Below are positions 12,216 to 27,886 of a stretch of DNA of 45,086 nt, piece by piece (the first letter of the stretch is position 1; each line of letters opens with the position of its first letter). The notes below the pieces were generated by a model. The model made no database searches. It saw only the letters and a program-made list of their open reading frames with translations, and had not been told where the DNA came from. The DNA is from Candidatus Thalassarchaeaceae archaeon (GTDB lineage Archaea > Thermoplasmatota > Poseidoniia > Poseidoniales > Thalassarchaeaceae): positions 1-45,086 of the forward strand of contig JASLKH010000010.1 in the NCBI GenBank assembly GCA_030747675.1. The letters are read 5' to 3'. A program made the translations under genes and the position numbers.

Positions 12216-13352
12216 ATGACTTCGTGGCTTTCTACACACGCCCCCAAGCGTTTTGATGCATTGGCCATGCCATCAACTATTTCTGACCAATTTATTCGAA
12301 CGTGTTTATCAGGAAATTTACCCCATCTTTTGATTTCTGGCCCAGCAGGCGTCGGCAAGACCGTTGCTTGGCATCTTATTGCGAGACAAGTTTTGGGACC
12401 AGGATGGAAATCAACCTGTCATGTGTTACAAGCACGAGATTTAGCACGCCAGCAAAATGCAATGAAAAAATTCGAAGAATTTCTTCGACCAGCGGGACTC
12501 GGCTCATCAGATACTTTAGCAGGCCGCACAAGTCTCGATGCTTTTGATCGGAAAATGTGGGACAGTAATGATGCTGAAGCCCCATGCGGCGAAGAAACAA
12601 AATTGGAAGATGGGCGAATGGCAGTTAGCCGCCTAATCGTAATAGAAGATGCAGATCATCTTGGCAGCAGACGCCAACCATACCTTCGCCGTATGATGGA
12701 ATCCGAATCCACGACGACACGATTTATTTTCACTGCCCGTGCCCCAAGCAGAATCATTGATGCTTTACGAAGTCGAATGTTGCATATACGAATACCATCT
12801 GTTACTAACGAACAGATATCCTCAACGATTCGGAAGGTAGCAAGTCTAGAAGATGTTAATTTCGCAGATGGCCTTCCTGAGGACCTCGCACACGTCTCTT
12901 CAGGAAACTTGCGTAAGGGCCTATTCATGTTTGAACTATTATCACGCCAAGGCCTTGCTACAGAGCGCAGTAAATTGTATGATGTTGTTGCAGCCAGTTC
13001 GCTTCAACATTCTAGGCAAATGATAGAAATGGCATTACGAGGAAGGGTTGTTGAATGGCGTTGGGAAAAGCAAAGAAATCGAAACGTCAAAATCCTTGAG
13101 GGGGCGATGGGCCTTCTTGATGAAATGATGGGCACACATGCTTTAGATGCTGAAGACATAGTCCACCAAATACATACAGAGTTGGTAGGAAACCGGTTGA
13201 TGCTCCCTCCTTTACTTAGAGGTGAAATTTTACGTGAATTAGCGAAGTGTGATGTTAAATTACGCCGTTCAATACATTCCCGAATCCAAATAGAAAATTA
13301 TCTCTATCAACTTGCAGAAGCAGGACGACGGCACGGGCTTGCTCTTAGTTGA
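12216..13352 (+). CDS. Replication factor C small-subunit homologue (divergent)
   Basis: LPHLLISGPAGVGKT, VIEDADHL...Q..LRRMME, RFIFT, IIDALRSR, GNLRK, C-terminal RIQIE. Several canonical RFC boxes are altered. Confidence 0.82.
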   Translation: MTSWLSTHAPKRFDALAMPSTISDQFIRTCLSGNLPHLLISGPAGVGKTVAWHLIARQVLGPGWKSTCHVLQARDLARQQNAMKKFEEFLRPAGLGSSDTLAGRTSLDAFDRKMWDSNDAEAPCGEETKLEDGRMAVSRLIVIEDADHLGSRRQPYLRRMMESESTTTRFIFTARAPSRIIDALRSRMLHIRIPSVTNEQISSTIRKVASLEDVNFADGLPEDLAHVSSGNLRKGLFMFELLSRQGLATERSKLYDVVAASSLQHSRQMIEMALRGRVVEWRWEKQRNRNVKILEGAMGLLDEMMGTHALDAEDIVHQIHTELVGNRLMLPPLLRGEILRELAKCDVKLRRSIHSRIQIENYLYQLAEAGRRHGLALS

Positions 13353-13353
13353 G

Positions 13354-13427
13354 CGAGCGCGGCAGGATTCGAACCCACGGAGCCCGGCTTAGGAGGCCGG
13401 TGCAATATCCAGCTATGCGACGCGCCC
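13354..13427 (-). tRNA. tRNA-Arg (CCT), CCA not encoded
   Basis: GGGCGCG/CGCGCTC-G acceptor; anticodon arm CCGGC-CTCCTAA-GCCGG; T-loop GGTTCGAATCC. Confidence 0.93.
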
Positions 13428-13516
13428 AAGTGACCCTCAAGCCTCGTATTGAAGGAGGTTACGCTCTAAACAGGCGTCACCCTGATGACCCAGTATCCTC
13501 TCCGAGGGATGTTACG

Positions 13517-15001
13517 ATGTTGCCGGATGACGCCGACGCTGGCCTCCCTCGACCATATGGCGGCGGTTTTGAAGTAGACGAAGGCATAGGGGATATCATT
13601 AGAAGTCGCCTCAAGAAAAGAGAGAGGGCCCGTCGACGATGGGGGAGATTTGCAGATATTTGGCTTTTGAATTACGCTCGAATCCTTTTGCCATCATTAC
13701 TCATTCTATCTACTGTATCGGTAATGGCATTCCCCACAAAAATAGCTTCGGACTTGGTTGCAGGTTGTGCCGCCCTTGCTAGCTTTTCCTTTCTTTTACC
13801 ATCAGTTTTGTCTAGTCATTATATGCTCTGGGTCGGCCAAGATCGTCTTGGGAAACGAAATTTGAAACAAACTGCGAATGATACAGGTGCTGAAAGAATT
13901 TTGAATGCCTTAAAGGAAGCACGTTTACATGAAATTATGCGAATATCTAACCAATTGGGGTTTGCTTTGGTTTTATGGATTGCATCCCAATTCCCTCCCG
14001 GGGAAGAATTTAGAGGGCTTTTACTGGTATCTTGCATACTTGCTGCAAGCATTTCTCTCGCTCACACATTAATCATTGAGCAAAGGACATATGGATATTC
14101 AAGGCGATTACCCTTCCTTCCATTTCACGCACCAAGCCAACATGAAAGCAATCTACAAAATACATTGACTGAGGTTTTATCTGCTCATTTAGACCCTGAA
14201 AGTCATACTAGGTTTACTAATTGGTGCAATGATTTAGCTATGTCATTGAAACCCTCCATAGACACCGCTGAAGCAATCGAAAGAACGCTACATTTGTTGC
14301 ATTTGGAAGGGCAGCACATGATCAATAGGGTACAATTGGTTGAGGAAATGAAATCATACATCGATAACAAAAAATTGGATAATTTATTGTTTACTAGCAA
14401 ACATCTGGATTTGCCAGAACTTTCTCGGTTGGTTGGCCACACTCGTGCATTTGCATTAGGATTATTCCACCTTCTCGACAGACTTCAATTTGATTTAATG
14501 GATCACTCTCAATCCCTTGCCAGCCATTCATGGAGAATGGACTCCAGTATACCCAATAGATGCGGAGAATCTCGAGGGGACCTATTTGTCATGGTCAGTA
14601 ATTTGAGTGATAACGAAACCCCAGTCGAGCTCGAGGTCCACATCCCCGATGGGCAACCCTCGCGACAAGTATTCAGGTTAACACCAACTCCTCAAAATCC
14701 ACCAAATGAGCCCCTTCAATTGTGGGAACCAGAAGATCCGGACGTAGTCCATTGGCAATTGAAATTAGTGGATGCTGCCCATGTTCTTTGGCTCGGAGTG
14801 GCTTGGGCAGATGGGATTCAAGGAAGACGCCCCGTAAGCCTCAATTTACGTCATATTGATGGGCGCACAATTTCATCAGACACACTATGGACAACAGTCC
14901 ATCCACGATCGGGTAGAGGCGAATCCATGCGATGGAAAATGGACCATGCTCGGAACCTTGCACAACGTTGGCGCAATCAGGCCCTTACCCGAATGGAATA
15001 A
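13517..15001 (+). CDS. Membrane protein (about 4 N-terminal TM helices, soluble C-terminal region), unknown function
   Basis: Hydrophobic segments (ILLPSLLILSTVSVMAF, LVAGCAALASFSFLL, LGFALVLWIA, LLLVSCILAASISLA). The track start overlaps the tRNA; ATG 13517 has an upstream GAGGG. Confidence 0.72.
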   Translation: MLPDDADAGLPRPYGGGFEVDEGIGDIIRSRLKKRERARRRWGRFADIWLLNYARILLPSLLILSTVSVMAFPTKIASDLVAGCAALASFSFLLPSVLSSHYMLWVGQDRLGKRNLKQTANDTGAERILNALKEARLHEIMRISNQLGFALVLWIASQFPPGEEFRGLLLVSCILAASISLAHTLIIEQRTYGYSRRLPFLPFHAPSQHESNLQNTLTEVLSAHLDPESHTRFTNWCNDLAMSLKPSIDTAEAIERTLHLLHLEGQHMINRVQLVEEMKSYIDNKKLDNLLFTSKHLDLPELSRLVGHTRAFALGLFHLLDRLQFDLMDHSQSLASHSWRMDSSIPNRCGESRGDLFVMVSNLSDNETPVELEVHIPDGQPSRQVFRLTPTPQNPPNEPLQLWEPEDPDVVHWQLKLVDAAHVLWLGVAWADGIQGRRPVSLNLRHIDGRTISSDTLWTTVHPRSGRGESMRWKMDHARNLAQRWRNQALTRME

Positions 15002-16720: not shown

Positions 16721-18349
16721 ATGGATTCTAAGCACGTTATATCTGAAAGCGCCCCCCCTGTGCTTTTGCTTGTAGTTCTAGTATCCCTTCTTTTCGCTTC
16801 GGCACAGTATGAATCACCAGTATCTTCACGATTTGTGCCAGATATTTCTGAACCGACATGGCCCCCTTGCCAATCGGGTACAGATTGCGCAGAATCGAAA
16901 CTTTGTACTACATCATCTTTTGATCCCGAACCTGTGGCAGAAGTTTGGAATATCACAGGTGAAAATCGTACATTTTCATCACCCCATACAGCCGACCTAA
17001 ATGCAGACGGAATACTTGATATTGTGATTGGAACCGGCATAGAATCACCACCAAATGGCTCTATTGTGGCCATTAATGGGCATGATGGCTCAATATTATG
17101 GAATGTTGAAACAAATCAAGAAATGTTCTCTTCAGCCCAATTTGGCGACTTAGATGGTGACGGAGAAATAGATGTAATCTTAGGTGGAAGAGGCCAAGAA
17201 TTACGTGCAATTGATGGCCAAACTGGAAATGAGATTTGGGCCTTTGATGCCACTTCACCAGAGAGAAATCATTGGTATCAATTTTACACAGGTCAATTTA
17301 TTGAAGACGTTGACAGTGACGGCATCAATGATTGGCTTACAGCGAATGGTGGCGACCCAACTAAAGCTCCAACCCAGGAAAGAGGCAATGGCTATTTGAT
17401 GGTCATATCAGGATCTACTGGAAAAATATTGGCTATTGCAGACACTCCTGATGGGATGGAGACGTATATGTCTCCAGTCATATACAATCCTCATCCAGAA
17501 ATGGCGACTGAGATTTTATTCGGCACCGGTGGAGAGACATGGCACGGAGGCCTCTGGTCAACTTCACTAGATGCGATTATGTCTGGAGATATCTCGGGTG
17601 CCAAGCAAATTGTTCCACCTGAAGAGGGAATAGAAAAAGGCCTCATATCCCCTCCGATCATTGTTGATCTAACGAGGGACGAAATTCAGGATATTGTGGT
17701 ATCAATGTTCGATGGAAGGACAATTGCAATTGATGGCCGAGATTATTCTACAATTTGGGAAGTCGACGCAAAAAGTCATGCGATGGGAGGGACATCGCAA
17801 AGCGCAGAAACATGGGTAACCCCCGCAGCCGGATATTTTTCACCAGATTCGATACCAGATATTTTCGTGCATTATGTTATTGGAACATGGCCATTTTATG
17901 ATTCATACTGGACAGCCCAAATTGATGGGGCAACTGGTACAGTTTCTTGGTCGGAGGAAACAGGACACACATCAGCTTCTAGTCCTTTGGCGGTTGATTT
18001 GACAGGTGATCAACGCGATGAAGTAGTAATGATTAGAGGGACCGCTATAGTCAATGAAAATGACTCCAATAGTTTACAATTGACCCATGAATTGTTAATT
18101 TGGAACTCCTGTGATTTTTCAAATGTTTCATTATTCAATAGAGAAGGAATCAGTATTGCAAGCCCTTTAGTTGCAGATTTGGATAATGACGGATATTTAG
18201 ATATGATTTCAACATCTACAACCTCGTATGAATCACTTGCAGGGGCTTGGACTATGCATAGGACTAATCTAAGTGTTTTAGCACCAGAAATAATCACATG
18301 GGGCGCATATATGGGCACCGGATACGATGGACGGATCCAAGGGGCGTAG
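16721..18349 (+). CDS. Membrane-anchored/secreted FG-GAP/VCBS-repeat beta-propeller protein
   Basis: N-terminal hydrophobic helix. About 8 repeats S.P..(A/G)DL..DG..D(I/V) (ADLNADGILD, GDLDGDGEID, DVDSDGIND, ADLDNDGYLD) with PQQ-like DG.TG..LW links. Confidence 0.85.
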   Translation: MDSKHVISESAPPVLLLVVLVSLLFASAQYESPVSSRFVPDISEPTWPPCQSGTDCAESKLCTTSSFDPEPVAEVWNITGENRTFSSPHTADLNADGILDIVIGTGIESPPNGSIVAINGHDGSILWNVETNQEMFSSAQFGDLDGDGEIDVILGGRGQELRAIDGQTGNEIWAFDATSPERNHWYQFYTGQFIEDVDSDGINDWLTANGGDPTKAPTQERGNGYLMVISGSTGKILAIADTPDGMETYMSPVIYNPHPEMATEILFGTGGETWHGGLWSTSLDAIMSGDISGAKQIVPPEEGIEKGLISPPIIVDLTRDEIQDIVVSMFDGRTIAIDGRDYSTIWEVDAKSHAMGGTSQSAETWVTPAAGYFSPDSIPDIFVHYVIGTWPFYDSYWTAQIDGATGTVSWSEETGHTSASSPLAVDLTGDQRDEVVMIRGTAIVNENDSNSLQLTHELLIWNSCDFSNVSLFNREGISIASPLVADLDNDGYLDMISTSTTSYESLAGAWTMHRTNLSVLAPEIITWGAYMGTGYDGRIQGA

Positions 18350-18353
18350 ATGG

Positions 18354-18770
18354 ATGAAGAAGACATTATTCACAAAAATTGTTGAAGGCGACATCCCTTC
18401 TTCTAAAGTAGCCGAAGGAGATTTGTGGTATGCGTTTTTGGACATCAACCCTTGGAGAATGGGACATACACTTGTCGTGCCTAGAGAACCGGCTCAAAGA
18501 ATCTCTGAACTATCAATAGAATCACGCAATGCATTAATGGAAGGCGTGGTCGAAGTTCAACGGCGACTATCGATAGAGTTCAAAACATCAGATTTTAGTG
18601 TAAATGTAAATGATGGACCTCAAGCCGGCCAAGAAGTCCCCCATACCCACATCCATGTAATTCCCCGATGTGTAGAAAATGACAATCGCCCACTATGGAC
18701 GAATAAAAATACCAGTACACCAGATTTTGTTATGCTTGAAGAATTGTCAAAACGTCTTCAGTCCCTTTGA
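18354..18770 (+). CDS. HIT family nucleotide hydrolase
   Basis: LFTKIVEGDIP, AFLDINP...GHTLVVP, NDGPQAGQEVPHTHIHVIPR (HxHxH). ATG at 18354. Confidence 0.93.
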   Translation: MKKTLFTKIVEGDIPSSKVAEGDLWYAFLDINPWRMGHTLVVPREPAQRISELSIESRNALMEGVVEVQRRLSIEFKTSDFSVNVNDGPQAGQEVPHTHIHVIPRCVENDNRPLWTNKNTSTPDFVMLEELSKRLQSL

Positions 18771-18796
18771 TACGGAATGCATACTTGGGTGGGAAC

Positions 18797-20362
18797 ATGG
18801 GGACTTCAGATGTTCGAGAAGTTCAATCAGGGGCCGATGGTGCCATTGATCATCATGGAGAGACTCTTCCAGAATTATCAAAAAGCGCATCACGCATCGA
18901 CATTTCAAAAATTGAAAATGCTCGAAGAGTTGCAAAAAAGCAAGGCGACCATCCAGGAATTGGTTGGTTCTATGATTTAATGATGGGTTTTGCAAGTAGG
19001 GCATTCAAAGGCCAATTCCGTACAATTGAAATTACAGGTTTAGAACACATTTCGGAAGAAGCAGGTATGCTTACTGTTGCGTGGCATACAAATGGATTAA
19101 TTGACCCAATGTGTATTTCAGTAACCCAATCAAAGCGTTTGGTATTTGGCGGCCGCCATGATTTGGTTACACGCCCCATCTTGGGACCAATTGCATCTCG
19201 GATGGGGACCCAACCAGTAATCCGTCAGGCTGAACTTGTCCGGGGTGGAGCATCGGAAGAGGCCGCCGGTAGAATCAATGGAAAAACTATGTTGACAATA
19301 GCAGATTGTATTGCTCACGGCCAAGCTTCAGCCCTATTTCCGGAAGGGACCTCACATCTGGACTCAAAAATGAAACGCCTTCGGACTGGACCAATGCGAT
19401 CTGTAATTGCTGCCAACTCAATTGCTAAAGAACGTGATTTACCCGAACCCCATTTATTACCTGTTGGCTTACATTTCAGGACATCATTCCATTTTGGAAC
19501 CGATGTATGGATTGAATATAGGGAACCAATTCACCTTTCTGAATTTACCCATTCACCCGGAGATCGCACGAAATTAATCTCAGGCGAATGGGTAGAAGCC
19601 CCAGTAGAATCGGTCAATACACTTCGAGAATTAGTGTACCAACGCCTTTCTGAAATAACACCCGATTCTGACACATGGGATGAACATAGGACATGGCACA
19701 CTCTTGGACATATAGAAGCCCAAATTGTCAAGAAACCATTACAAACATGGAAAGACGAAGTATTAGCTGCTAGGAATATACGTGATAGAATTAGAAATGG
19801 AGAATCTAAATTATTGGATTCAATACCTGCTGCAGAGAGAATTTCACAATCATTACATGAAGTTGGATTAGATGGCCGCTCAATATCTAGTGAAGGTTTA
19901 CGAAAACCCAAAATCACCGAGAAGACAGCAATATTACCTGCTATTTTGCTAGCATTGATGGCCGCCCCATTAACAATTTACTCAAGTGGTTTAATGATTC
20001 TCACAGCAAAAATTCTTGGTGATAAAACGGATGAAGGGCTGGATGCTAGAACGACATACCATATTCTCCTAGGGCTACTTGGACCAATTCTTATTTGGCC
20101 ATTCGCAGTGATAATATTGGGCGCTTTTGCGTATTATCTCTTAGTAGTAGTTGGATATTTTGGGACTTTGAGTTTAATACATGTAATGGTAATCATTTTG
20201 ATATCACCATTTTGTTTCCATTTATCGAATCGAGTTGCATTGAAAGGTTGGCATTTCTATGTAATTTATCGTGATGCCCGACGATTGACTATATTTTCGA
20301 AATCAGAAAATGGGGCTAATATTGAATCTGATGTAAAGAAATTACTCGTTGTGCTGAAATAG
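18797..20362 (+). CDS. PlsC-like glycerolipid acyltransferase with C-terminal TM helices
   Basis: HTNGLID (HX4D), PVIR, LFPEGTSH, LLPVGL, 3-4 C-terminal TM segments. ATG 18797 follows GGTGGGA. Confidence 0.88.
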   Translation: MGTSDVREVQSGADGAIDHHGETLPELSKSASRIDISKIENARRVAKKQGDHPGIGWFYDLMMGFASRAFKGQFRTIEITGLEHISEEAGMLTVAWHTNGLIDPMCISVTQSKRLVFGGRHDLVTRPILGPIASRMGTQPVIRQAELVRGGASEEAAGRINGKTMLTIADCIAHGQASALFPEGTSHLDSKMKRLRTGPMRSVIAANSIAKERDLPEPHLLPVGLHFRTSFHFGTDVWIEYREPIHLSEFTHSPGDRTKLISGEWVEAPVESVNTLRELVYQRLSEITPDSDTWDEHRTWHTLGHIEAQIVKKPLQTWKDEVLAARNIRDRIRNGESKLLDSIPAAERISQSLHEVGLDGRSISSEGLRKPKITEKTAILPAILLALMAAPLTIYSSGLMILTAKILGDKTDEGLDARTTYHILLGLLGPILIWPFAVIILGAFAYYLLVVVGYFGTLSLIHVMVIILISPFCFHLSNRVALKGWHFYVIYRDARRLTIFSKSENGANIESDVKKLLVVLK

Positions 20363-20382: not shown

Positions 20383-21009
20383 ATGGCCGATGAAAAAGAG
20401 GGTGAACGCATTCGTGATTGGTTGACTTCCGAGGGCCTAGAAATTAAGCCACGTGAAGATCCACGTGCAGATTTCCATTACATGGTCCGATATCCACCCA
20501 CAAAGCATGGCCACGTATTCAACGTTCTTTCTCCCAAAGATAGAAATTTGATAGTAGTCTCTTCAGTAACTCAAGTAGATTTAGGTCAACAAGATGAAAT
20601 GAAAAAGCACAGTAAAGATGACTCGGAAGCATGGAGAGAATGGCTGCATGAAACTCGATTAGGACTCACCAGGGCCCATGTGGATTGGGTATTACATGTT
20701 GGGCATGGGAGCGAAAATCCCGGGCCACTCCAAGCATTTAATTTGTCTATGCCAATTTGGAATGATGGTATAACACAAAATGAATTAATGCAAACTCTTC
20801 GTAGATTGTGGCTTTCTAAACTTTCGATTATCCATGAGATTAAATTTTCATACGGCCCAGGCATTGGTCGCCCCGGCCCCGTAGATGATTGGGCCAAGTC
20901 TGGAGGCCCACCTAGTGAAGGTGAGAAACCGCCTTCTTCAGCCTCTAAAGTCGAAACAGATGAAACAGGCGGTTTTGGTACAGGATTTGATCCTTCAGAA
21001 TGGGTTTAA
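20383..21009 (+). CDS. DUF2299-like conserved archaeal protein
   Basis: IRDWL..EGL.I......ADFH..V.YP...G....V..PK resembles DUF2299 as recalled; no search was run. Confidence 0.6.
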   Translation: MADEKEGERIRDWLTSEGLEIKPREDPRADFHYMVRYPPTKHGHVFNVLSPKDRNLIVVSSVTQVDLGQQDEMKKHSKDDSEAWREWLHETRLGLTRAHVDWVLHVGHGSENPGPLQAFNLSMPIWNDGITQNELMQTLRRLWLSKLSIIHEIKFSYGPGIGRPGPVDDWAKSGGPPSEGEKPPSSASKVETDETGGFGTGFDPSEWV

Positions 21010-21143
21010 TGTTGAAAATTGCTGAAAAACACCCTAAAAACGTGGGCGCTGCCCACCACGGTACTGACCGCAAAGGGGTTTGATTAAGTAGGAGGAAAAT
21101 ACGTTGTATGTATGCTGGAGAGACTCTCCAGGGGTTGAGACAG

Positions 21144-24100
21144 ATGGATAACAATAAACGTGGAAGCATTACAATGGTCATCATTTTCTTGATGAGTACA
21201 TTACTTGTCGGGTACACAGCACCCGAAGCAGAAGGCGCAACAGTCGTCATCACAGATGCAGTACAGGTCGTAGATGGCGGTGCTTTGAATGAACGAATGG
21301 CCTCGATGGTATCAGATAGTGAAGGCAACATCCATATTGTCTGGAGTCGCAATACTCAACACTTGTATTATTCAATGATGGACCCAAGAGCGGAAACACT
21401 GATTGATGCTACGCAAATATCCAACCCCGGAGCCCATCGCGCATGGCACCCCGATGTCGATATTGATTCCGAAGACCGAATCCACGTCACATGGACAGAC
21501 AAAGCCAGTCAACACACAATCCTCTATACACTCCTCGATCCAAGTATGGATGACCAAGATGGCTCAGTATCTGATGATACAACTATTTCTATGATTGATG
21601 ATACTGAAGTTGCTCGCTTGCAGCAAAACCGCGATTACCCTGCAATCGCAGTCGATAGTTTGGACAACGTCCACCTCGTCTGGGAAGATTCCTATGATAG
21701 ACATGATAAGTATTTTCAACAACCACAGATTTACTACAAATTTTTAGAAATTGATTTGGTAGCACGTGAAGCGATTACTGCAATTGACAACACTCTTTTG
21801 ACGCCAATTATTGGCCACAAAGGCCACCCAGATATTGCAATTGATGCTGATGATTTCGTACAGATTGCATGGGACGACACCCGTGGTGGAAAAGTGGAAA
21901 TTGTATCACCAATTGACACCTCAGGTTCAATGTATTCAGAATGGGCTGACATGTGCGTTGTATTTTATGGAGGAACATGGTCCAGTGGAGGATATTTCCA
22001 AGGAATCAAACCAATGCTTGAAGAAGCAAACATTTCAGTTTTTGAAACGCTATATGCCCTTGGTGGCTACTATCCTAGCGCAGCAAACTCTGGTGCTTGT
22101 GCAGCCCAACCACATGCAGAGAACCCGCGCAGTAACCACCTTGACATCGGCGACGATTCAGGTGGCATCATTAAATTACACAGCACGATATACAATGGAG
22201 GGGCACAAAATGGAGGTTACCAAGGTGAAGATTGGGGACCCGGTTCAACATGGGCATGCCTTTCATGGGTAGACGCTCAAGGCAACGTTCCAGGAAACCC
22301 ACCTACAAGCCACGATCACAAATGGAATCCCAATGCGACAAAACTAGTCATTCCAATTAGTGATGAAGGACCAAAGGGCGGCGATCCACCCCAACAACAA
22401 GATGACATCACATCAATCAACGAAGCTCACGACGCATGTATCACTGCAGGCGTAATTCCAGTAGGGATGTACGGCTCTTCATGGGGAGGGAACAACCAAG
22501 TCTCTTCACACATGAAAGATCTCGCGCAATGTCCTAACGGGCAAGTCAACATGAACCCCCGACTTTGTCCAGGGACAACAACACGGAACACAAATGCTGG
22601 CGGCCAAGTCTATGCATTCCCTGCATCTGGAGGCAATCAAATGCAAACATTGGTTGAAGCAATGGTATTCTTAGCAACAAACAACAGTCGAGAAATATAT
22701 ATGACAGTTCTTGACCCATATTCCAAAATTAACAATCCAGCCCCCGGATGGTCATATGGTATGACTGGAACAGACGAGTCAGGTAATCGTTACACTGAAG
22801 ATTTAGGTCCAAGTCAAGACGCCAATGGGTATGGCCACCTTGTTGTTGTGAATGATACTCGTGTAACACTTGATGATGCATTTAGTATGCATCCCTCCCT
22901 CGCGATTGATAATGCAGGAGACACTCATATTTCATGGATGGATACACGAGACTATGGGTTTGACAAAGATGACAATTACGAAGTATATTATTCTCGACTT
23001 CGCCTCAAGGGTTCAGCAAATTGGGATGGCGTCTCGGGTGGACTACCAACATATGGTATTAAGAAAATTGTAGATACAAGAATTTCATATGGCGAAGGGT
23101 GGGGTAATGAAAACCCGAATAATTACTACAGCGCATCTTCTTACATGCCTCAAATCATTGCAGATAATCAGAACAATATCCACCTCACATGGTTGGAAAA
23201 TTCTAATATCTCGCAAGGTGAATCAATTCAATATACTCGATTGAATCATACTAATGACAACCCAGATTGGCCCCTCAATAGTATTGCAGCAGCAGTACTT
23301 GATCCATGGGAGAGGGTTGACGTTACAGATTGGAACAGTGATAAATTAGGTCCCAACAATGGACGCACACCTGAATTGTCTCAGCCGCCCGCGTTTGCTA
23401 ATGACCTTGGTAGCGGAGCACACATTGCTTGGTCAGATACTAACAAGTGTAATGACAATTCAAACAATGGAGCCTACACCCTTTGTTACACTCACGTTTT
23501 AACAGGCCAGGTCGATATTGAACTTGCTGACGGAGAAACTTACTATCATGTGATTGAACCAGGAGAGCAAACGTTGTACAACATGACAATTAACAACACA
23601 ACACCAGGGCCAATTGATCTCGTTGCGGACACATTCTCGGTTAACCTATCAGGCGTACCAGTGAATTGGACAGCGAATCTTTTCTTTGCGGATAACCACA
23701 CCGCAATATTCCCTGAAACACCGATTTACTTACTTGGTGGTGAATCAGTACGTGTTTACATGCGTGTTCGAGCACCGTCAATTTATCAGGCCAACAATGA
23801 CGAGTTGGCACAAATATCAGTCAGTGCAATTTCATACAAAGATCCTGCAATACGGAGTGATAGATTGACCTTGACGTTAATGGATGTTAAACACGGGATT
23901 GAGCTTGAAACAAGTCACTTCCAATCAGATGTGGAACAAGGTCAGACAGCAATATTTTCGATTACAATAACAAATACAGGAAACGTTTTCGACTCCTTTG
24001 CTTTCTATGATCCCACCACATTACAAGGTCAGCAAGAATGGCTTTTACCATGGGGATGGCAAGTTACATTCCCATTAATGGTCAGTCTCGACCCAGGCCA

Positions 24101-26201
24101 GTCAGTGACTAAGAATTTGGAAGTCGCAGTTCCCACCACGCAAGAACCAGGTACCTTTGCATTATATCTGAAGGGCTGGTCAATGGGCGAACCCGTGAAA
24201 AGTGTAGACAAAGGGACATACGACATTCTCGAATTATGGGTAAATGTGAGCATTAGATCCACAGGAAATATTGTATTCAATATCTATGATACATCAGAAT
24301 ACGTCATGCCAGGCCAAGGTGAAGATTCTTGTCATACTTACACTATTCAAGTAGTGAAGAATTTCGCTCCAGGCTATCTTGTATTTACCACACCCGGTGC
24401 ACCCGAAGCCCGACCAGATGAAATCCCCCTCAACCAATGGCGCTACGATCATTGGACTGTTTCGTTAGATTTCACTAATGCCCCAGGAGGAAATGGCGTT
24501 GATATGAGTGCCCCTCGGTATTGGGAATTAATTGAGCATTCATATGCGGTAGGTGTAACTGTATGTGCTCCAACCAATGCTAATGCAGGTTTAGGGCCAG
24601 CAATTACAATCAAGGCCCACCTACAAGACTCTGCCCGAGTTTCCGATTCGGTTATTTTATCTACTAATGTAATTCATGTCTACGATTTAGACATGACAAC
24701 TGAAAGTACCACCTACGATGTATCGCCATCGGATGACATTACTCTAAACATGACAACGACAAACAGTGGGAACGGACCGGATCGTTATGATATGCGTTTC
24801 ACAGAAGTCATGGATGCATCAGGCGCCCCTTCCAATTTACCGTGGGCAGTAGATGTGCCACGTGCCCGCCTGTCTGAATTGGATCGTGATGCATCTGAAT
24901 CCGTGGACGTGGTAATCCACGTCCCAGATCAAATTGTAGCTGGGACTTACAGAGTTGTCTTGAAGACATACAGCGAAGAGAGTTGGGAAGGCACAACTGA
25001 ACGCGACGCCATCATCATCACTATTGCAGTGAAAGAATATCATGATATGCAAATATGGCTTGATCCATCTGTTGAGAGCCAAGTGAAAACAACTGCTCCT
25101 GGCAGGACAGTACGATATCTTCTGAATGTGACGAACAATGGGAATGTACCTGATACCCCAACCTTACATAATCACACAAAGAGTGGAAATGATTGGGATG
25201 ATCGCCCTGGAATGGGTTCACTATCAAGTTGGAACAATGGTCAGTATGAAGGTGTACGCTATGCAATGGTTGAAGATTTCAATACTGAATTACCTAAGGA
25301 AATACCCTGTCTTGATTTAGATGTGGGGGACCCAGCACCATTGGAGGGATGTGCTTACCATCCAGATGGCACTTGGAGTTTGGCAGAAATGGAAGCATAT
25401 ACCACGGTTCAAATTATGGCGATTATCGATATTAGCCCCTCCGCAACTCTTGCAAACCGAGAGATTGGAATCAAAGTCATGTCACTTTATGGTAGTTCAC
25501 CAGATGGCGACGCTGATGAAACTGCGAGTTGGTCCGATAGTTGCACCATTGACAGTGACAACGATGGTTTTGTCGACAATATTTATCCGAATTGTGATAC
25601 AAATGAACAAGTTCTAAGAATTCGCTTACGAGCACCAGATCTTGAAATTGTATCAGTTAACGTTGACAGTAGAGAAGCAGCAGTTGGTGAGATGATACCA
25701 ATTACTGTTGAGATTATCAATAGAGGTAACGTTCATGCAGTTGATATCAGCATAGTTCTTTGTGAAGATGAATCTTCGTCAAATCTTAGGAAAAATGATT
25801 GTGAAGATGAAAATATTGCATATCGTCAAGTAATTGGTGCATTAATGCCACCTGACGATAGTGGTTCTGGAGAAGACGATGCAGTCAGTATCACACTCCT
25901 GTATCCTGTAAAGGCCGGTACACACGAATTAACAGTAATTGTTGACCCTGGTAACTTCATCATTGAAGCAAGTGAATCCAATAATCGAAAAGACGTCGGT
26001 GAACTGTCTAGTGAAAATGGATTCTTTGACGTCATACTTGAAGTTGCAAGTGAATGGTCAGTTCCATCGATGATTCTATTGCTAACAATAGCCTTGATGG
26101 GCGTAGCTGGAATGGTGATGATTTCTCGTCGAAGAGACGCCCTCGCACGTGTTGATGCCCAATCAAGCGTAGTCAATTACGAAGAAGATCTTCAGTTTTG
26201 A
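21144..26201 (+). CDS. Very large surface protein: signal peptide, 7-blade beta-propeller with inserted vWA domain, Ig-like repeats, CARDB, C-terminal TM anchor
   Basis: Seven P.(I/V)A.D...H(I/V).W...YY repeats; DTSGS and ISDEGP MIDAS-like motifs; repeated (I/V)TN.GN..D.(F/Y) Ig-like units; PDL.I...VDP.N.I.E..E.NN CARDB; TM followed by RRRD. Start 21144 or 21108. Confidence 0.85.
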   Translation: MDNNKRGSITMVIIFLMSTLLVGYTAPEAEGATVVITDAVQVVDGGALNERMASMVSDSEGNIHIVWSRNTQHLYYSMMDPRAETLIDATQISNPGAHRAWHPDVDIDSEDRIHVTWTDKASQHTILYTLLDPSMDDQDGSVSDDTTISMIDDTEVARLQQNRDYPAIAVDSLDNVHLVWEDSYDRHDKYFQQPQIYYKFLEIDLVAREAITAIDNTLLTPIIGHKGHPDIAIDADDFVQIAWDDTRGGKVEIVSPIDTSGSMYSEWADMCVVFYGGTWSSGGYFQGIKPMLEEANISVFETLYALGGYYPSAANSGACAAQPHAENPRSNHLDIGDDSGGIIKLHSTIYNGGAQNGGYQGEDWGPGSTWACLSWVDAQGNVPGNPPTSHDHKWNPNATKLVIPISDEGPKGGDPPQQQDDITSINEAHDACITAGVIPVGMYGSSWGGNNQVSSHMKDLAQCPNGQVNMNPRLCPGTTTRNTNAGGQVYAFPASGGNQMQTLVEAMVFLATNNSREIYMTVLDPYSKINNPAPGWSYGMTGTDESGNRYTEDLGPSQDANGYGHLVVVNDTRVTLDDAFSMHPSLAIDNAGDTHISWMDTRDYGFDKDDNYEVYYSRLRLKGSANWDGVSGGLPTYGIKKIVDTRISYGEGWGNENPNNYYSASSYMPQIIADNQNNIHLTWLENSNISQGESIQYTRLNHTNDNPDWPLNSIAAAVLDPWERVDVTDWNSDKLGPNNGRTPELSQPPAFANDLGSGAHIAWSDTNKCNDNSNNGAYTLCYTHVLTGQVDIELADGETYYHVIEPGEQTLYNMTINNTTPGPIDLVADTFSVNLSGVPVNWTANLFFADNHTAIFPETPIYLLGGESVRVYMRVRAPSIYQANNDELAQISVSAISYKDPAIRSDRLTLTLMDVKHGIELETSHFQSDVEQGQTAIFSITITNTGNVFDSFAFYDPTTLQGQQEWLLPWGWQVTFPLMVSLDPGQSVTKNLEVAVPTTQEPGTFALYLKGWSMGEPVKSVDKGTYDILELWVNVSIRSTGNIVFNIYDTSEYVMPGQGEDSCHTYTIQVVKNFAPGYLVFTTPGAPEARPDEIPLNQWRYDHWTVSLDFTNAPGGNGVDMSAPRYWELIEHSYAVGVTVCAPTNANAGLGPAITIKAHLQDSARVSDSVILSTNVIHVYDLDMTTESTTYDVSPSDDITLNMTTTNSGNGPDRYDMRFTEVMDASGAPSNLPWAVDVPRARLSELDRDASESVDVVIHVPDQIVAGTYRVVLKTYSEESWEGTTERDAIIITIAVKEYHDMQIWLDPSVESQVKTTAPGRTVRYLLNVTNNGNVPDTPTLHNHTKSGNDWDDRPGMGSLSSWNNGQYEGVRYAMVEDFNTELPKEIPCLDLDVGDPAPLEGCAYHPDGTWSLAEMEAYTTVQIMAIIDISPSATLANREIGIKVMSLYGSSPDGDADETASWSDSCTIDSDNDGFVDNIYPNCDTNEQVLRIRLRAPDLEIVSVNVDSREAAVGEMIPITVEIINRGNVHAVDISIVLCEDESSSNLRKNDCEDENIAYRQVIGALMPPDDSGSGEDDAVSITLLYPVKAGTHELTVIVDPGNFIIEASESNNRKDVGELSSENGFFDVILEVASEWSVPSMILLLTIALMGVAGMVMISRRRDALARVDAQSSVVNYEEDLQF

Positions 26202-27031: not shown

Positions 27032-27886
27032 TCAACCTTCATCCCATTCTTTCCATCGGTTACTAGAATTCCCCGATCCTTCTTTAATTTCTTCATCTAA
27101 TTCCGAATCTGCAATTATTGAATCAAGCTCAATTTCTGATTGAATCTTGACTGAACTTTGTTGACCGTCCGGTCTATCTGCAAATGGGGGAGGAACATCA
27201 TTTTCTCCATGAGTTGAAGGAACAGACAAATCGAGGGGCACATCTGCATGAACACTTGCCCAGACCTCATCTGTTGTTGGAATCCTGTGTTGAGCATTAT
27301 CTCCACCTGTAATGGGTTTTTGCAATCCCCCTGAAGCATCCATCATTAAGCTAGTAGGATATGATTTCTTACGCCCTGTAAACCAAAGAATTCCACCCAG
27401 AGGCATCAAACAGACTCCGCATATCCCCGCAAAACAGGCGATTTCTAGAATCAATAGGATTGTGCTCCCTTCACCCAGATCTTCCTTATCAACTAACCAA
27501 ACAGGGTCTTCTTGGTCTAAATTTTGTATTAGGTGTGCTCCATCAGCATCGGGCTCATACACCCCTATTGATATGTATATGCGGCTATTTTCACCGAACC
27601 GATCGCCATCCAGCATGCCGGGACTACTTCTTTCAATTTCGGTATTAGTTTGAATTTCACTAATTGTTAAATTAACGGTAGAAGAATCTAATCGATATGC
27701 AATATATGTTTTATCTTCACTCAGATTAACAGACTTCGAAGAGTCGGCTTCTACTTTTGCAACATGATTATTTTCAGGATCCATTGCTGAAACGAAATCG
27801 CCCCAACCAGTCAATAAGGCGATGGAAGCAAGGCAAATCAAGACCCCTCCTGTGATGAGAAGACGGCGTGGCCATAGATTCTGCAT
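27032..27886 (-). CDS. Two-TM membrane protein with acidic C-terminal tail
   Basis: Hydrophobic helices near residues 9-27 and 143-168; no recognised family. Confidence 0.7.
   Translation of the reverse strand: MQNLWPRRLLITGGVLICLASIALLTGWGDFVSAMDPENNHVAKVEADSSKSVNLSEDKTYIAYRLDSSTVNLTISEIQTNTEIERSSPGMLDGDRFGENSRIYISIGVYEPDADGAHLIQNLDQEDPVWLVDKEDLGEGSTILLILEIACFAGICGVCLMPLGGILWFTGRKKSYPTSLMMDASGGLQKPITGGDNAQHRIPTTDEVWASVHADVPLDLSVPSTHGENDVPPPFADRPDGQQSSVKIQSEIELDSIIADSELDEEIKEGSGNSSNRWKEWDEG

What the first reader, a model, noticed from the sequence alone, without database searches (positions are those of the whole stretch)
21144..26201. Integrin-alpha-like architecture in an archaeal surface protein: 7-blade propeller with an inserted MIDAS vWA domain, Ig-like stalk, TM and short tail
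Seen: seven blades with the pattern P-x-I-A-x-D-x3-H-I-x-W…(I/L)-Y-Y (IHIVW, IHVTW, VHLVW, VQIAW, THISW, IHLTW, AHIAW). Blade 4 is split: after VQIAWDDTRGG comes a ~260-aa insert (about 21891-22680) that starts VEIVSPIDTSGSM (DxSxS), contains GEDWG and LVIPISDEGP, and is Cys-rich. The blade then resumes with REIYMTVLDP, matching HLYYSMMDP and TILYTLLDP of blades 1-2. About four Ig-like units, a DxDxDG loop, CARDB, a TM helix and a ~20-aa RRRD tail follow. Known: integrin alpha-I chains have a 7-blade propeller with an inserted vWA I-domain on an Ig stalk, with a TM and short tail. Inference: a probably convergent, metal-dependent adhesion receptor for particle, host or cell-cell attachment. 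The blades are not FG-GAP type, so homology to integrins is not claimed.
Basis: partly seen in the sequence, partly recalled or inferred. Interest (0 to 1): 0.78.

Follow-up and report, generated by a model that had tools for sequence, protein, structure and literature searches.

The report
Archaeal surface propeller with nested vWA
This gene of a Marine Group II (Poseidoniales) archaeon encodes a membrane-anchored surface protein whose predicted head is a seven-bladed propeller with a metal-site (vWA) domain looped out of blade 4; the layout resembles an animal integrin head but is built from unrelated parts, and nearly every genome of the order has it, but its ligand is untested.

Summary
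ORF 21144..26201 (+) has a signal peptide, seven HxxW blades, a 266-aa Cys-rich insert in blade 4, a roughly 830-aa stalk ending in CARDB, one TM helix and a 25-aa tail. AlphaFold2 (pLDDT 85, pTM 0.85) gives a closed seven-bladed propeller (Z 33 to CylK, 27 to PLL lectins, 25 to integrin alpha-M/L). The insert folds as vWA: all 50 best PDB matches are vWA, Z 9.0-11.6. No sequence library detects this vWA.

D270/S272/S274, E374 and D419 are intact in 35 of 45 relatives. They are wholly lost in two separate paralogue lineages that keep all six cysteines, as expected for one MIDAS-type metal site.

The gene was found in 80 of 81 Poseidoniales genomes, in conserved synteny, and its head diverges about as slowly as topoisomerase VI-B. 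The insert is therefore conserved, not hypervariable. The blades are BNR/SBBP-like, not FG-GAP, and the insertion point differs from integrins, so the likeness is convergent.

An adhesin or ligand-receptor role is inferred; an envelope-scaffold role remains possible. Earlier follow-ups in this scan reached the same reading on orthologues from other genomes. I found no published description.

The parts
21144..26201 (+). Whole gene (1685 aa from ATG 21144; an in-frame ATG at 21108 would add 12 aa)
   Evidence: Homologue N-termini align from M13 and the Atlas record starts at residue 13.
21144..21239 (+). Sec-type signal peptide (hydrophobic core aa 20-38, AEG|A cleavage-like site)
   Evidence: Hydropathy and alignment of N-termini. 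Cleavage is inferred.
21240..21890 (+). Propeller blades 1-3 and strands 1-2 of blade 4 (aa 45-261)
   Evidence: Blade motifs; AF2 strands; weak BNR_4 and PDIAV_lipo hits.
21891..22688 (+). Nested vWA-fold domain (aa 262-527) with about 80-100 extra loop residues and six invariant Cys (283, 331, 384, 444, 475, 487)
   Evidence: AF2 pLDDT 86.5. VIA: all top 50 matches are vWA, Z 11.6-9.0. Foldseek top hits are integrin beta-I domains. Cys are invariant in 44 of 45 relatives; the 45th, L032, is cut off before C487.
21915..21929 (+). DxSxS motif D270-T-S272-G-S274 at the end of vWA strand beta-1
   Evidence: strand, then helix. Invariant in 18 orthologues.
22227..22229 (+). E374, candidate fourth MIDAS ligand, at the N-terminus of the helix that precedes strand beta-4
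   Evidence: Lost together with DxSxS and D419 in paralogues. Position from topology. Its role is inferred.
22359..22364 (+). S418-D419 after vWA strand beta-4 (PISDEGP), candidate fifth MIDAS ligand
22689..23522 (+). Strands 3-4 of blade 4 and blades 5-7 (aa 528-805)
   Evidence: Propeller superpositions span model residues 15-772.
23523..25622 (+). Stalk (aa 806-1505), probably five or six beta-sandwich modules, with 10 of the protein's 16 N-x-S/T sequons
   Evidence: Weak NEW3/DUF7507 hits and choice-of-anchor T at 65.6 bits, below its cut-off of 70. Sequons. Not modelled.
25551..25568 (+). DSDNDG (DxDxDG) calcium-loop-like motif, aa 1482-1487, between C1479 and C1496
   Evidence: partly conserved in the consensus.
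25632..25991 (+). CARDB domain (aa 1509-1628)
   Evidence: Pfam PF07705, E 2e-10, 41.2 bits against a cut-off of 22.7.
26055..26123 (+). Transmembrane helix (aa 1650-1672)
   Evidence: Hydropathy.
26124..26198 (+). Cytoplasmic tail of 25 aa; the core RR.(D/E)A...(Q/K)SS, an acidic patch and a terminal F recur across both families
   Evidence: Alignment; R1674, R1675 and S1687 are invariant in 18 orthologues.
20383..21009 (+). Upstream DUF2299 gene, a conserved co-directional neighbour (not shown to be functionally linked)
   Evidence: Pfam. Found directly upstream in all 6 loci checked, from both families.

Best explanation
The gene encodes a core, single-copy, type-I membrane-anchored surface protein of Poseidoniales, probably N-glycosylated, that acts as a metal-dependent ligand-binding receptor or adhesin.

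Anatomy. The head is a seven-bladed BNR/SBBP-like propeller. A vWA domain with six invariant Cys (probably three disulfides) is looped out of the strand 2-3 loop of blade 4. By standard propeller topology this loop lies on the same upper face that carries the integrin alpha-I domain. The vWA domain has a MIDAS-type site made of D270, S272, S274, E374 and D419. Having a Glu rather than a Thr as the fourth ligand resembles integrin beta-I domains.

Proposed mechanism. A bound divalent cation (Mg2+, Mn2+ or Ca2+) would complete its coordination shell with a carboxylate or other acidic group of the ligand. A stalk of about 830 aa, made of beta-sandwich and CARDB modules, holds the head away from the membrane. 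A conserved 25-aa tail faces the cytoplasm.

Likely ligand. The head evolves about as slowly as topoisomerase VI-B and the gene is syntenic and near-universal. The ligand is therefore more likely a conserved molecule (a generic acidic marine polymer or protein, or a self envelope partner) than a variable host receptor.

Shown: sequence features, predicted folds, conservation, joint loss of the site residues. Inferred: metal binding, ligand binding, glycosylation, which face the insert sits on.
For: - Head model pLDDT 85.4, pTM 0.85.
- Propeller matches: Z 33.3 to CylK (rmsd 2.6, 355 aligned), Z 27 to PLL/PHL lectins, Z 24.6-24.9 to integrin alpha-M/L.
- Whole-head Foldseek top hit is the alpha-L/beta-2 alpha-I headpiece 5e6s, E 1.7e-8 over 793 columns.
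- Insert: all 50 best of 48,161 chains are vWA folds. These include adhesins (TRAP, CMG2/TEM8, the pilus tip proteins SpaC, PitA, PilB and Mfa5) as well as intracellular vWA proteins. Z 11.6-9.0. Integrin beta-I domains top Foldseek.
- DxSxS sits at the beta-1/alpha-1 junction.
- D270/S272/S274/E374/D419 are intact in 35 of 45 relatives. All three segments are lost in P0130 and in the P0136/P0138/P0141 clade, with at least 3 changes on the tree, while the six Cys and the fold signature persist.
- A compact, non-nested relative in another Thermoplasmatota family keeps DTSGSM...SESWG...PISDE and nearly reaches the Pfam VWA cut-off: 23.2 against 23.8 bits.
- Found in 80 of 81 genomes of the order, and 52 of 53 high-quality ones.
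- Synteny with acyltransferase-DUF2299 and topoisomerase VI holds in both families.
- Eleven of 16 sequons are invariant in 18 orthologues.
- Exact-match contigs from two metatranscriptome libraries of one study cover the gene.
Against: - No binding, metal or localisation data exist.
- MIDAS geometry was not measured (no coordinates available), and the role of E374 rests on topology and joint loss only.
- No Pfam, NCBIfam or PDB sequence search detects a vWA here.
- TM-scores to integrin headpieces are low (0.21-0.28), so the relative placement of the domains differs.
- Near-universality, including in mostly free-living populations (PMC6864105), fits a structural envelope role at least as well as particle attachment.
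- Propellers of this fold class also occur in enzymes.
- The stalk was not modelled.
Confidence: 0.55

Rival explanations
1. Major envelope or S-layer-type scaffold protein. The stalk anchors the protein in the membrane, the propeller-vWA heads tile the cell surface, and the MIDAS cation bridges an acidic residue of the neighbouring subunit, giving a cation-dependent lattice.
For: - Near-universal, single-copy in this genome and syntenic.
- C-terminal TM anchor and conserved sequons, typical of archaeal envelope glycoproteins.
- Transcript-library contigs of run X1 lie almost only on this gene within a 20-kb stretch: 12 of the 13 contigs laid, going by the listed pieces and the per-bin depth.
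- No S-layer protein is named in the MGII genome papers I searched.
Against: - Known archaeal S-layer proteins are built from Ig-like or other beta-sandwich arrays, not a propeller-vWA head (own knowledge).
- S-layer proteins usually diverge fast, whereas this head is about 61% identical between families, like TopoVI-B at 60%.
- The genome also encodes two PGF-CTERM proteins and about 35 other signal-bearing ORFs over 1000 aa, which are alternative envelope candidates.
- Contig data cannot rank expression.
Confidence: 0.2
2. Cell-surface enzyme. The propeller is a BNR/sialidase-like, GH43-like or polysaccharide-lyase-like catalytic domain acting on marine polymers, and the vWA is an accessory substrate-binding module.
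For: - Blades give weak BNR_4 hits, and relatives of the blade repeat carry BNR_4, GH43 and SBBP hits.
- Structural neighbours include CylK, GH families, PL25/PL42 lyases and sialidases.
Against: - The best structural matches also include non-catalytic lectins and WD40 propellers with similar Z.
- The conserved residues are mostly the per-blade repeat motif, so they look structural.
- No catalytic family reaches a curated cut-off.
Confidence: 0.08
3. True homologue of the integrin alpha-I chain, through shared ancestry or horizontal transfer.
For: The whole-head Foldseek top hits are alpha-I integrin headpieces, and the domain order is the same: propeller with nested vWA, stalk, TM, short tail.
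Against: - No FG-GAP signal here, while the same Pfam search finds FG-GAP in the neighbouring gene at E 2e-12.
- Integrin propellers score lower (Z about 25) than CylK (33) and PLL lectins (27).
- The insertion lies inside blade 4 rather than between blades 2 and 3.
- The vWA is no closer to alpha-I (Z 9.6) than to collagen VI or VWF A domains (Z 11.6).
- The stalk is CARDB/NEW3-like, there is no GFFKR motif, and no beta chain was detected, although that control was uninformative.
Confidence: 0.02

Closest known systems
Integrin alpha subunits with an inserted alpha-I domain (alpha-L, alpha-M, alpha-X, alpha-E; PDB 5e6s, 7p2d, 3k6s, 9p97)
   Same: Seven-bladed propeller with a MIDAS-bearing vWA domain looped out of a loop that, by topology, is on the upper face. 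Ig-like stalk, single TM and short cytoplasmic tail. These are the top whole-head Foldseek hits, with propeller Z 24.6-24.9.
   Different: - Blades are BNR/SBBP-like, not FG-GAP, and lack the Ca2+ hairpins in the blades.
- The insert sits in the strand 2-3 loop of blade 4, not between blades 2 and 3.
- The fourth MIDAS ligand is Glu, not Thr.
- Six Cys (likely three disulfides) and about 80-100 extra loop residues.
- No beta chain found; the stalk is CARDB/NEW3-like.
- TM-score is only 0.21-0.28.
Integrin beta-I (beta-A) domains (e.g. beta-3 in 2vdk_B, 9lt3_B)
   Same: Enlarged vWA nested in another domain, with DxSxS plus Glu plus Asp metal ligands and a disulfide-bonded extra loop. Best Foldseek hits of the insert (E 1.2e-4); Z 10.3 with 183 aligned.
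   Different: The host domain is a propeller, not the hybrid domain. Z is no better than for generic vWA domains. ADMIDAS and SyMBS sites were not assessed.
Bacterial vWA tip adhesins (SpaC, PitA, PilB, Mfa5) and PilY1 (vWA plus propeller in tandem)
   Same: Prokaryotic surface adhesins that present a MIDAS vWA, often nested in another domain, at the tip of a stalk or fibre. Z 10.2-10.3. PilY1 combines a vWA and a propeller (PMC11331964 and own knowledge).
   Different: Those are pilus-borne, with the vWA nested in Ig-like domains or placed in tandem with the propeller. This protein is a membrane-anchored single chain with the vWA inside a blade.
BNR_4/SBBP-type propeller surface proteins and the PDIAV-motif lipoprotein family (NF053835)
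   Same: The blade repeat P-D-I-A-x-D ... H-I-V-W is of this type: NF053835 E 2e-5, BNR_4 E 2.6e-5. Relatives of the repeat carry BNR_4/SBBP hits.
   Different: All hits here are below curated cut-offs, and none of the eight blade-repeat relatives scanned carries a Pfam VWA domain.

Membership tests
von Willebrand factor A (vWA) fold superfamily | Three-layer alpha/beta/alpha Rossmann-like fold with a central six-stranded sheet flanked by helices | tested here: met
   AF2 insert model pLDDT 86.5. All 50 top chains of 48,161 are vWA domains, Z 11.6-9.0, with 150-200 residues aligned across model residues 1-273.
von Willebrand factor A (vWA) fold superfamily | MIDAS: DxSxS after beta-1, plus Thr (or Glu in beta-I) before beta-4, plus Asp after beta-4 | tested here: inconclusive
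   DTSGS lies at the beta-1/alpha-1 junction. E374 and D419 are at the expected topological positions, and the three segments are lost together in paralogues. Side-chain geometry could not be measured and no metal-binding assay exists.
von Willebrand factor A (vWA) fold superfamily | Recognition by the sequence profile Pfam PF00092 / PF13519 | tested here: not met
   No VWA hit on the insert even at E up to 10, and no PF00092 match in the whole MAG, while the control rang in 11 of 14 genomes. A compact relative in G134 scores 23.2 bits against a cut-off of 23.8. Membership therefore rests on fold, not on the profile.
Integrin alpha chain | FG-GAP repeats forming the propeller, with Ca2+-binding hairpins in the last blades | tested here: not met
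   No FG-GAP hit. The same library finds FG-GAP in the neighbouring gene 16721-18349. The blades are BNR_4/SBBP-like.
Integrin alpha chain | alpha-I domain inserted between blades 2 and 3 | tested here: not met
   The insert lies between strands 2 and 3 of blade 4.
Integrin alpha chain | Thigh/calf-1/calf-2 legs and a GFFKR membrane-proximal motif | tested here: not met
   Stalk hits are CARDB, NEW3, DUF7507 and choice-of-anchor T. The tail reads SRRRDALARV....
Integrin alpha chain | Obligate heterodimer with an integrin beta chain | tested here: inconclusive
   PF00362 was not found in the MAG (78% complete), but the control rang in no genome, so the search is uninformative.
Seven-bladed beta-propeller (BNR/SBBP-like) | Closed ring of seven four-stranded blades | tested here: met
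   Seven repeats. The model superposes on the seven-bladed CylK domain (Z 33.3, rmsd 2.6, 355 aligned) and on PLL/PHL lectins (Z 27) over model residues 15-772.
CARDB (PF07705) | Profile match above the gathering cut-off | tested here: met
   41.2 bits against 22.7, aa 1509-1628.
Archaeal S-layer glycoprotein families | Match to a described S-layer family or a PGF-CTERM/archaeosortase signal | tested here: not met
   Only a 14-bit hit to NF033506, whose cut-off is 110. The C-terminus is a TM helix plus a 25-aa tail without PGF. Lattice formation itself cannot be tested with these tools.

The most novel reading that the evidence does not exclude
A single-chain archaeal analogue of integrin signalling. 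Ligand capture at the MIDAS shifts the C-terminal vWA helix, which feeds straight into strand 3 of blade 4. The change passes down the stalk to the conserved 25-aa cytoplasmic tail (RR.(D/E)A...QSS...acidic...F), which recruits a cytoplasmic partner. The abundant planktonic Poseidoniales would then sense and respond to contact with particles, polymers or other cells.
Probability: 0.1. Interest if true: 0.85.

Novelty: new variant of a known kind. Interest (0 to 1): 0.62.

Why it matters
Poseidoniales are among the most abundant archaea in the surface ocean. They are uncultured, and how they contact particles, polymers or other cells is not known. The genome papers I searched discuss archaella, thrombospondin and flotillin genes for adhesion and do not mention this protein.

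This is a near-universal, slowly evolving, membrane-anchored protein with a cryptic metal-site vWA presented on a propeller. It is a concrete, expressible candidate for that contact function, or for the envelope itself.

It is also a clear case of convergent domain nesting. The same solution as vertebrate alpha-I integrins, a vWA looped out of a seven-bladed propeller on a stalk, was reached with unrelated blades and at a different insertion point.

The paralogues in which the site residues are eroded while the fold is kept provide natural negative controls for binding experiments.

Tried and rejected
- Sequence searches for a vWA in the insert found nothing: Pfam at E up to 10, NCBIfam, PDB by phmmer and by a family profile.
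- The language-model Atlas search leaned towards vWA but scored below 0.9, so I treat it as a lead only.
- A search for shorter, stand-alone forms of the insert returned only contig-truncated fragments of the same family. None carries a Pfam VWA annotation.
- Integrin_beta (PF00362) in the MAG: no match, but the control did not ring either, so the result is uninformative.
- The FG-GAP propeller gene at 16721-18349 as a partner chain: rejected, because it is absent from the syntenic locus of Poseidoniaceae genome G003.
- Expression ranking from RNA libraries is not possible, because both runs are stored as contigs and were selected for holding this gene.
- The extra 255-aa segment in paralogue P0129 has no Pfam hit, and the Atlas gave only weak leads to MAM, CBM_4_9 and Cleaved_Adhesin, all below 0.9.
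- Literature searches found no description of this protein in a library that lacks most subscription journals.
- MIDAS distances, and which face of the propeller the insert sits on, could not be measured because model coordinates are not exposed.
- Both structure-prediction jobs went to the head, so the stalk was not modelled.
Full report
**The gene**

One frame is open from 21108 to 26201 on the + strand. Orthologue N-termini align from the second ATG at 21144, and the Atlas record also starts there. The product is therefore most likely 1685 aa. Residue numbers below count from 21108.

The sequence starts with a Sec-type signal peptide. Seven blade cores of the form H/Q-[ILV]-x-W lie at aa 76, 126, 189, 252, 607, 692 and 772. 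A gap of about 266 aa follows the fourth core. A hydrophobic helix spans aa 1650-1672, and a 25-aa tail begins RRRD.

**Sequence libraries**

- Pfam finds only CARDB above its cut-off (aa 1509-1628). It gives weaker Ig-like hits to DUF7507 and NEW3.
- NCBIfam gives a sub-threshold choice-of-anchor T hit in the stalk and a weak hit of blades 1-4 to the PDIAV-motif lipoprotein family.
- The N-terminal blades weakly match BNR_4. Other proteins that share the blade repeat carry BNR_4, SBBP or GH43 hits.
- FG-GAP is not detected here, although the same search finds it in the neighbouring gene 16721-18349.
- The insert has no Pfam, NCBIfam or PDB sequence match.

**Structure**

I ran AlphaFold2 on aa 30-830 with a 44-sequence alignment reaching down to about 27% identity. 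It gave pLDDT 85.4 and pTM 0.85.

- *Propeller.* The blades superpose across the insert (model residues 15-772). The matches are seven-bladed propellers:
  - CylK: Z 33.3, rmsd 2.6 A, 355 aligned.
  - Photorhabdus PLL/PHL lectins: Z about 27.
  - WD40 domains: about 25.
  - Integrin alpha-M/alpha-L: 24.6-24.9.
- *Insertion point.* By DSSP the insert leaves after strand 2 of blade 4 (VQIAWDD) and returns at strand 3 (REIYMTVL). By standard propeller topology the 2-3 loops share the face of the 4-1 loops, which is the face that carries the integrin alpha-I domain. I could not verify this on coordinates.
- *Whole head.* Foldseek ranks the alpha-L/beta-2 alpha-I headpiece first (E 1.7e-8, 793 columns), but TM is only 0.21-0.28.
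- *Insert alone.* The insert modelled by itself (pLDDT 86.5) alternates strands and helices. In an unbiased alignment against 48,161 PDB representatives, all 50 best chains are vWA domains (Z 11.6-9.0). They include collagen VI, VWF A1, BatB, CMG2, TRAP, pilus tip adhesins, and integrin alpha-I and beta-I domains. Foldseek puts integrin beta-I domains first.

The insert is therefore a vWA fold with roughly 80-100 extra loop residues.

**The metal site**

DTSGS (aa 270-274) follows vWA strand beta-1. E374 sits at the N-terminus of the helix before beta-4, and S418-D419 follows beta-4. These are the topological positions of the MIDAS ligands, with Glu where alpha-I domains have Thr, as in beta-I domains.

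In 45 orthologues and paralogues the five residues are intact in 35. The other ten are affected as follows:

| Relatives | State of the site |
|---|---|
| P0130 | All three segments replaced (PSTGS / K / GY) |
| P0136, L030, P0138, P0141 (one clade) | All three segments replaced (e.g. PTDGS / R / GR) |
| P0137, P0124, L015-L017 | Partial erosion |

A quick maximum-likelihood tree needs at least three changes. It places P0130 apart from the P0136/P0138/P0141 clade. All six insert cysteines and the WGPG and NPPT signatures remain wherever the sequence is complete. Joint loss of three distant segments on a conserved scaffold is what one functional site predicts.

A compact relative in another Thermoplasmatota family (G134) is not nested in a propeller. 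It keeps DTSGSM...SESWG...PISDE without the long loops, and its start scores 23.2 bits on Pfam VWA against a cut-off of 23.8. This gives a sequence bridge to the family. A truncated protein in G215 has a blade motif followed by the same vWA core.

**Distribution and rate**

- The head finds a match in 80 of 81 sampled Poseidoniales genomes: 52 of 53 high-quality ones and 19 of 19 genera. It is single-copy in this MAG, and some Thalassarchaeaceae carry paralogues.
- In a phylum sample the insert is found in all 35 other Poseidoniales genomes. Outside the order only the two weak relatives above appear.
- The order acyltransferase, DUF2299, this gene, then a convergent ArsR-type regulator and topoisomerase VI A/B a few kb away, is shared with the complete Poseidoniaceae genome G003. 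DUF2299 lies directly upstream in all six loci checked.
- Between the two families the head is about 61% identical, against 85% for TopoVI-A and 60% for TopoVI-B.
- By region across 18 orthologues, mean pairwise identity is:
  - propeller: 66-67%
  - vWA: 69%
  - first two stalk modules: 68-77%
  - membrane-proximal stalk: 48-60%
  - TM helix plus tail: 50%
- The insert is therefore conserved, not hypervariable.
- Eleven of 16 N-x-S/T sequons are invariant. The tail keeps RR.(D/E)A...(Q/K)SS, an acidic patch and a terminal F.

**Expression**

Two metatranscriptome libraries from one study hold exact-match contigs along the gene. In one of them, going by the listed pieces and the per-bin depth, 12 of the 13 contigs laid on a 20-kb stretch fall inside this gene. 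This is weak evidence of transcription only. The runs were selected for holding this gene, and contigs cannot rank expression.

**Interpretation**

The architecture claim is well supported. Homology to integrins is not. The blades are of a different repeat family, the insertion point differs, and the stalk is CARDB/NEW3-like. The vWA is also no closer to alpha-I than to any other vWA.

The most likely function is cation-dependent binding of an acidic group on a conserved ligand, by analogy with MIDAS vWA adhesins. I give this about 0.55.

An envelope-lattice role fits the universality, anchor and sequons. However, the MAG also encodes two PGF-CTERM proteins and about 35 other large signal-bearing ORFs, and the slow divergence is unusual for S-layer proteins. 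I give this about 0.2. A catalytic propeller remains possible at a low level.

**Prior work**

The MGII genome and transcriptome papers I searched do not mention this protein, and broader searches found no description of an archaeal propeller with a nested vWA. Earlier follow-ups in this scan described orthologues and one paralogue from other genomes with the same conclusions. My results were obtained before reading them and agree with them.

Noticed in passing
window 16721-18349 (+): A 542-aa protein with genuine FG-GAP / FAM234-type propeller hits (E 2e-12) lies 2.8 kb upstream of the non-FG-GAP propeller gene. It is absent from the syntenic locus of Poseidoniaceae genome G003, so it is not a conserved partner.
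   Followed up: partly
window 20383-21009 (+) and 18767-20362 (+): A DUF2299 gene and a 531-aa acyltransferase-domain gene lie directly upstream and co-directional. DUF2299 is upstream in all 6 loci checked, from both families. A functional link is unknown.
   Followed up: partly
P0129 aa 549-803; loci L019-L029 (paralogue clade in Thalassarchaeaceae): One paralogue clade carries a further segment of about 255 aa inside the nested vWA, just before its last helix, giving a domain within a domain within a domain. It has no Pfam hit. Atlas leads (MAM, CBM_4_9, Cleaved_Adhesin) all score below 0.9.
   Followed up: partly
G023:C1:643295-645734 (-): In one otherwise high-quality genome the orthologue is interrupted by a TAG and matches as two pieces. 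This may be a pseudogene, a strain variant or an assembly error.
   Followed up: no
window 13349-15001 (+) and 27032-27886 (-): ORFs of 550 aa and 284 aa with no Pfam family at E up to 0.001.
   Followed up: no
G000 whole genome: This 1.68-Mb MAG encodes about 35 ORFs over 1000 aa with signal-like N-termini. Several end in shared acidic/Trp-rich C-terminal motifs such as ...DDDGTWWYR... or ...TSFLDDLL. No Pfam VWA is detectable anywhere in the MAG.
   Followed up: no
window 21078-21144: An A/T-rich TTTGATTAAG element lies about 30 nt before ATG 21108 and about 60 nt before ATG 21144. It may be a TATA-like promoter element, which would fit the downstream start. Not tested.
   Followed up: no
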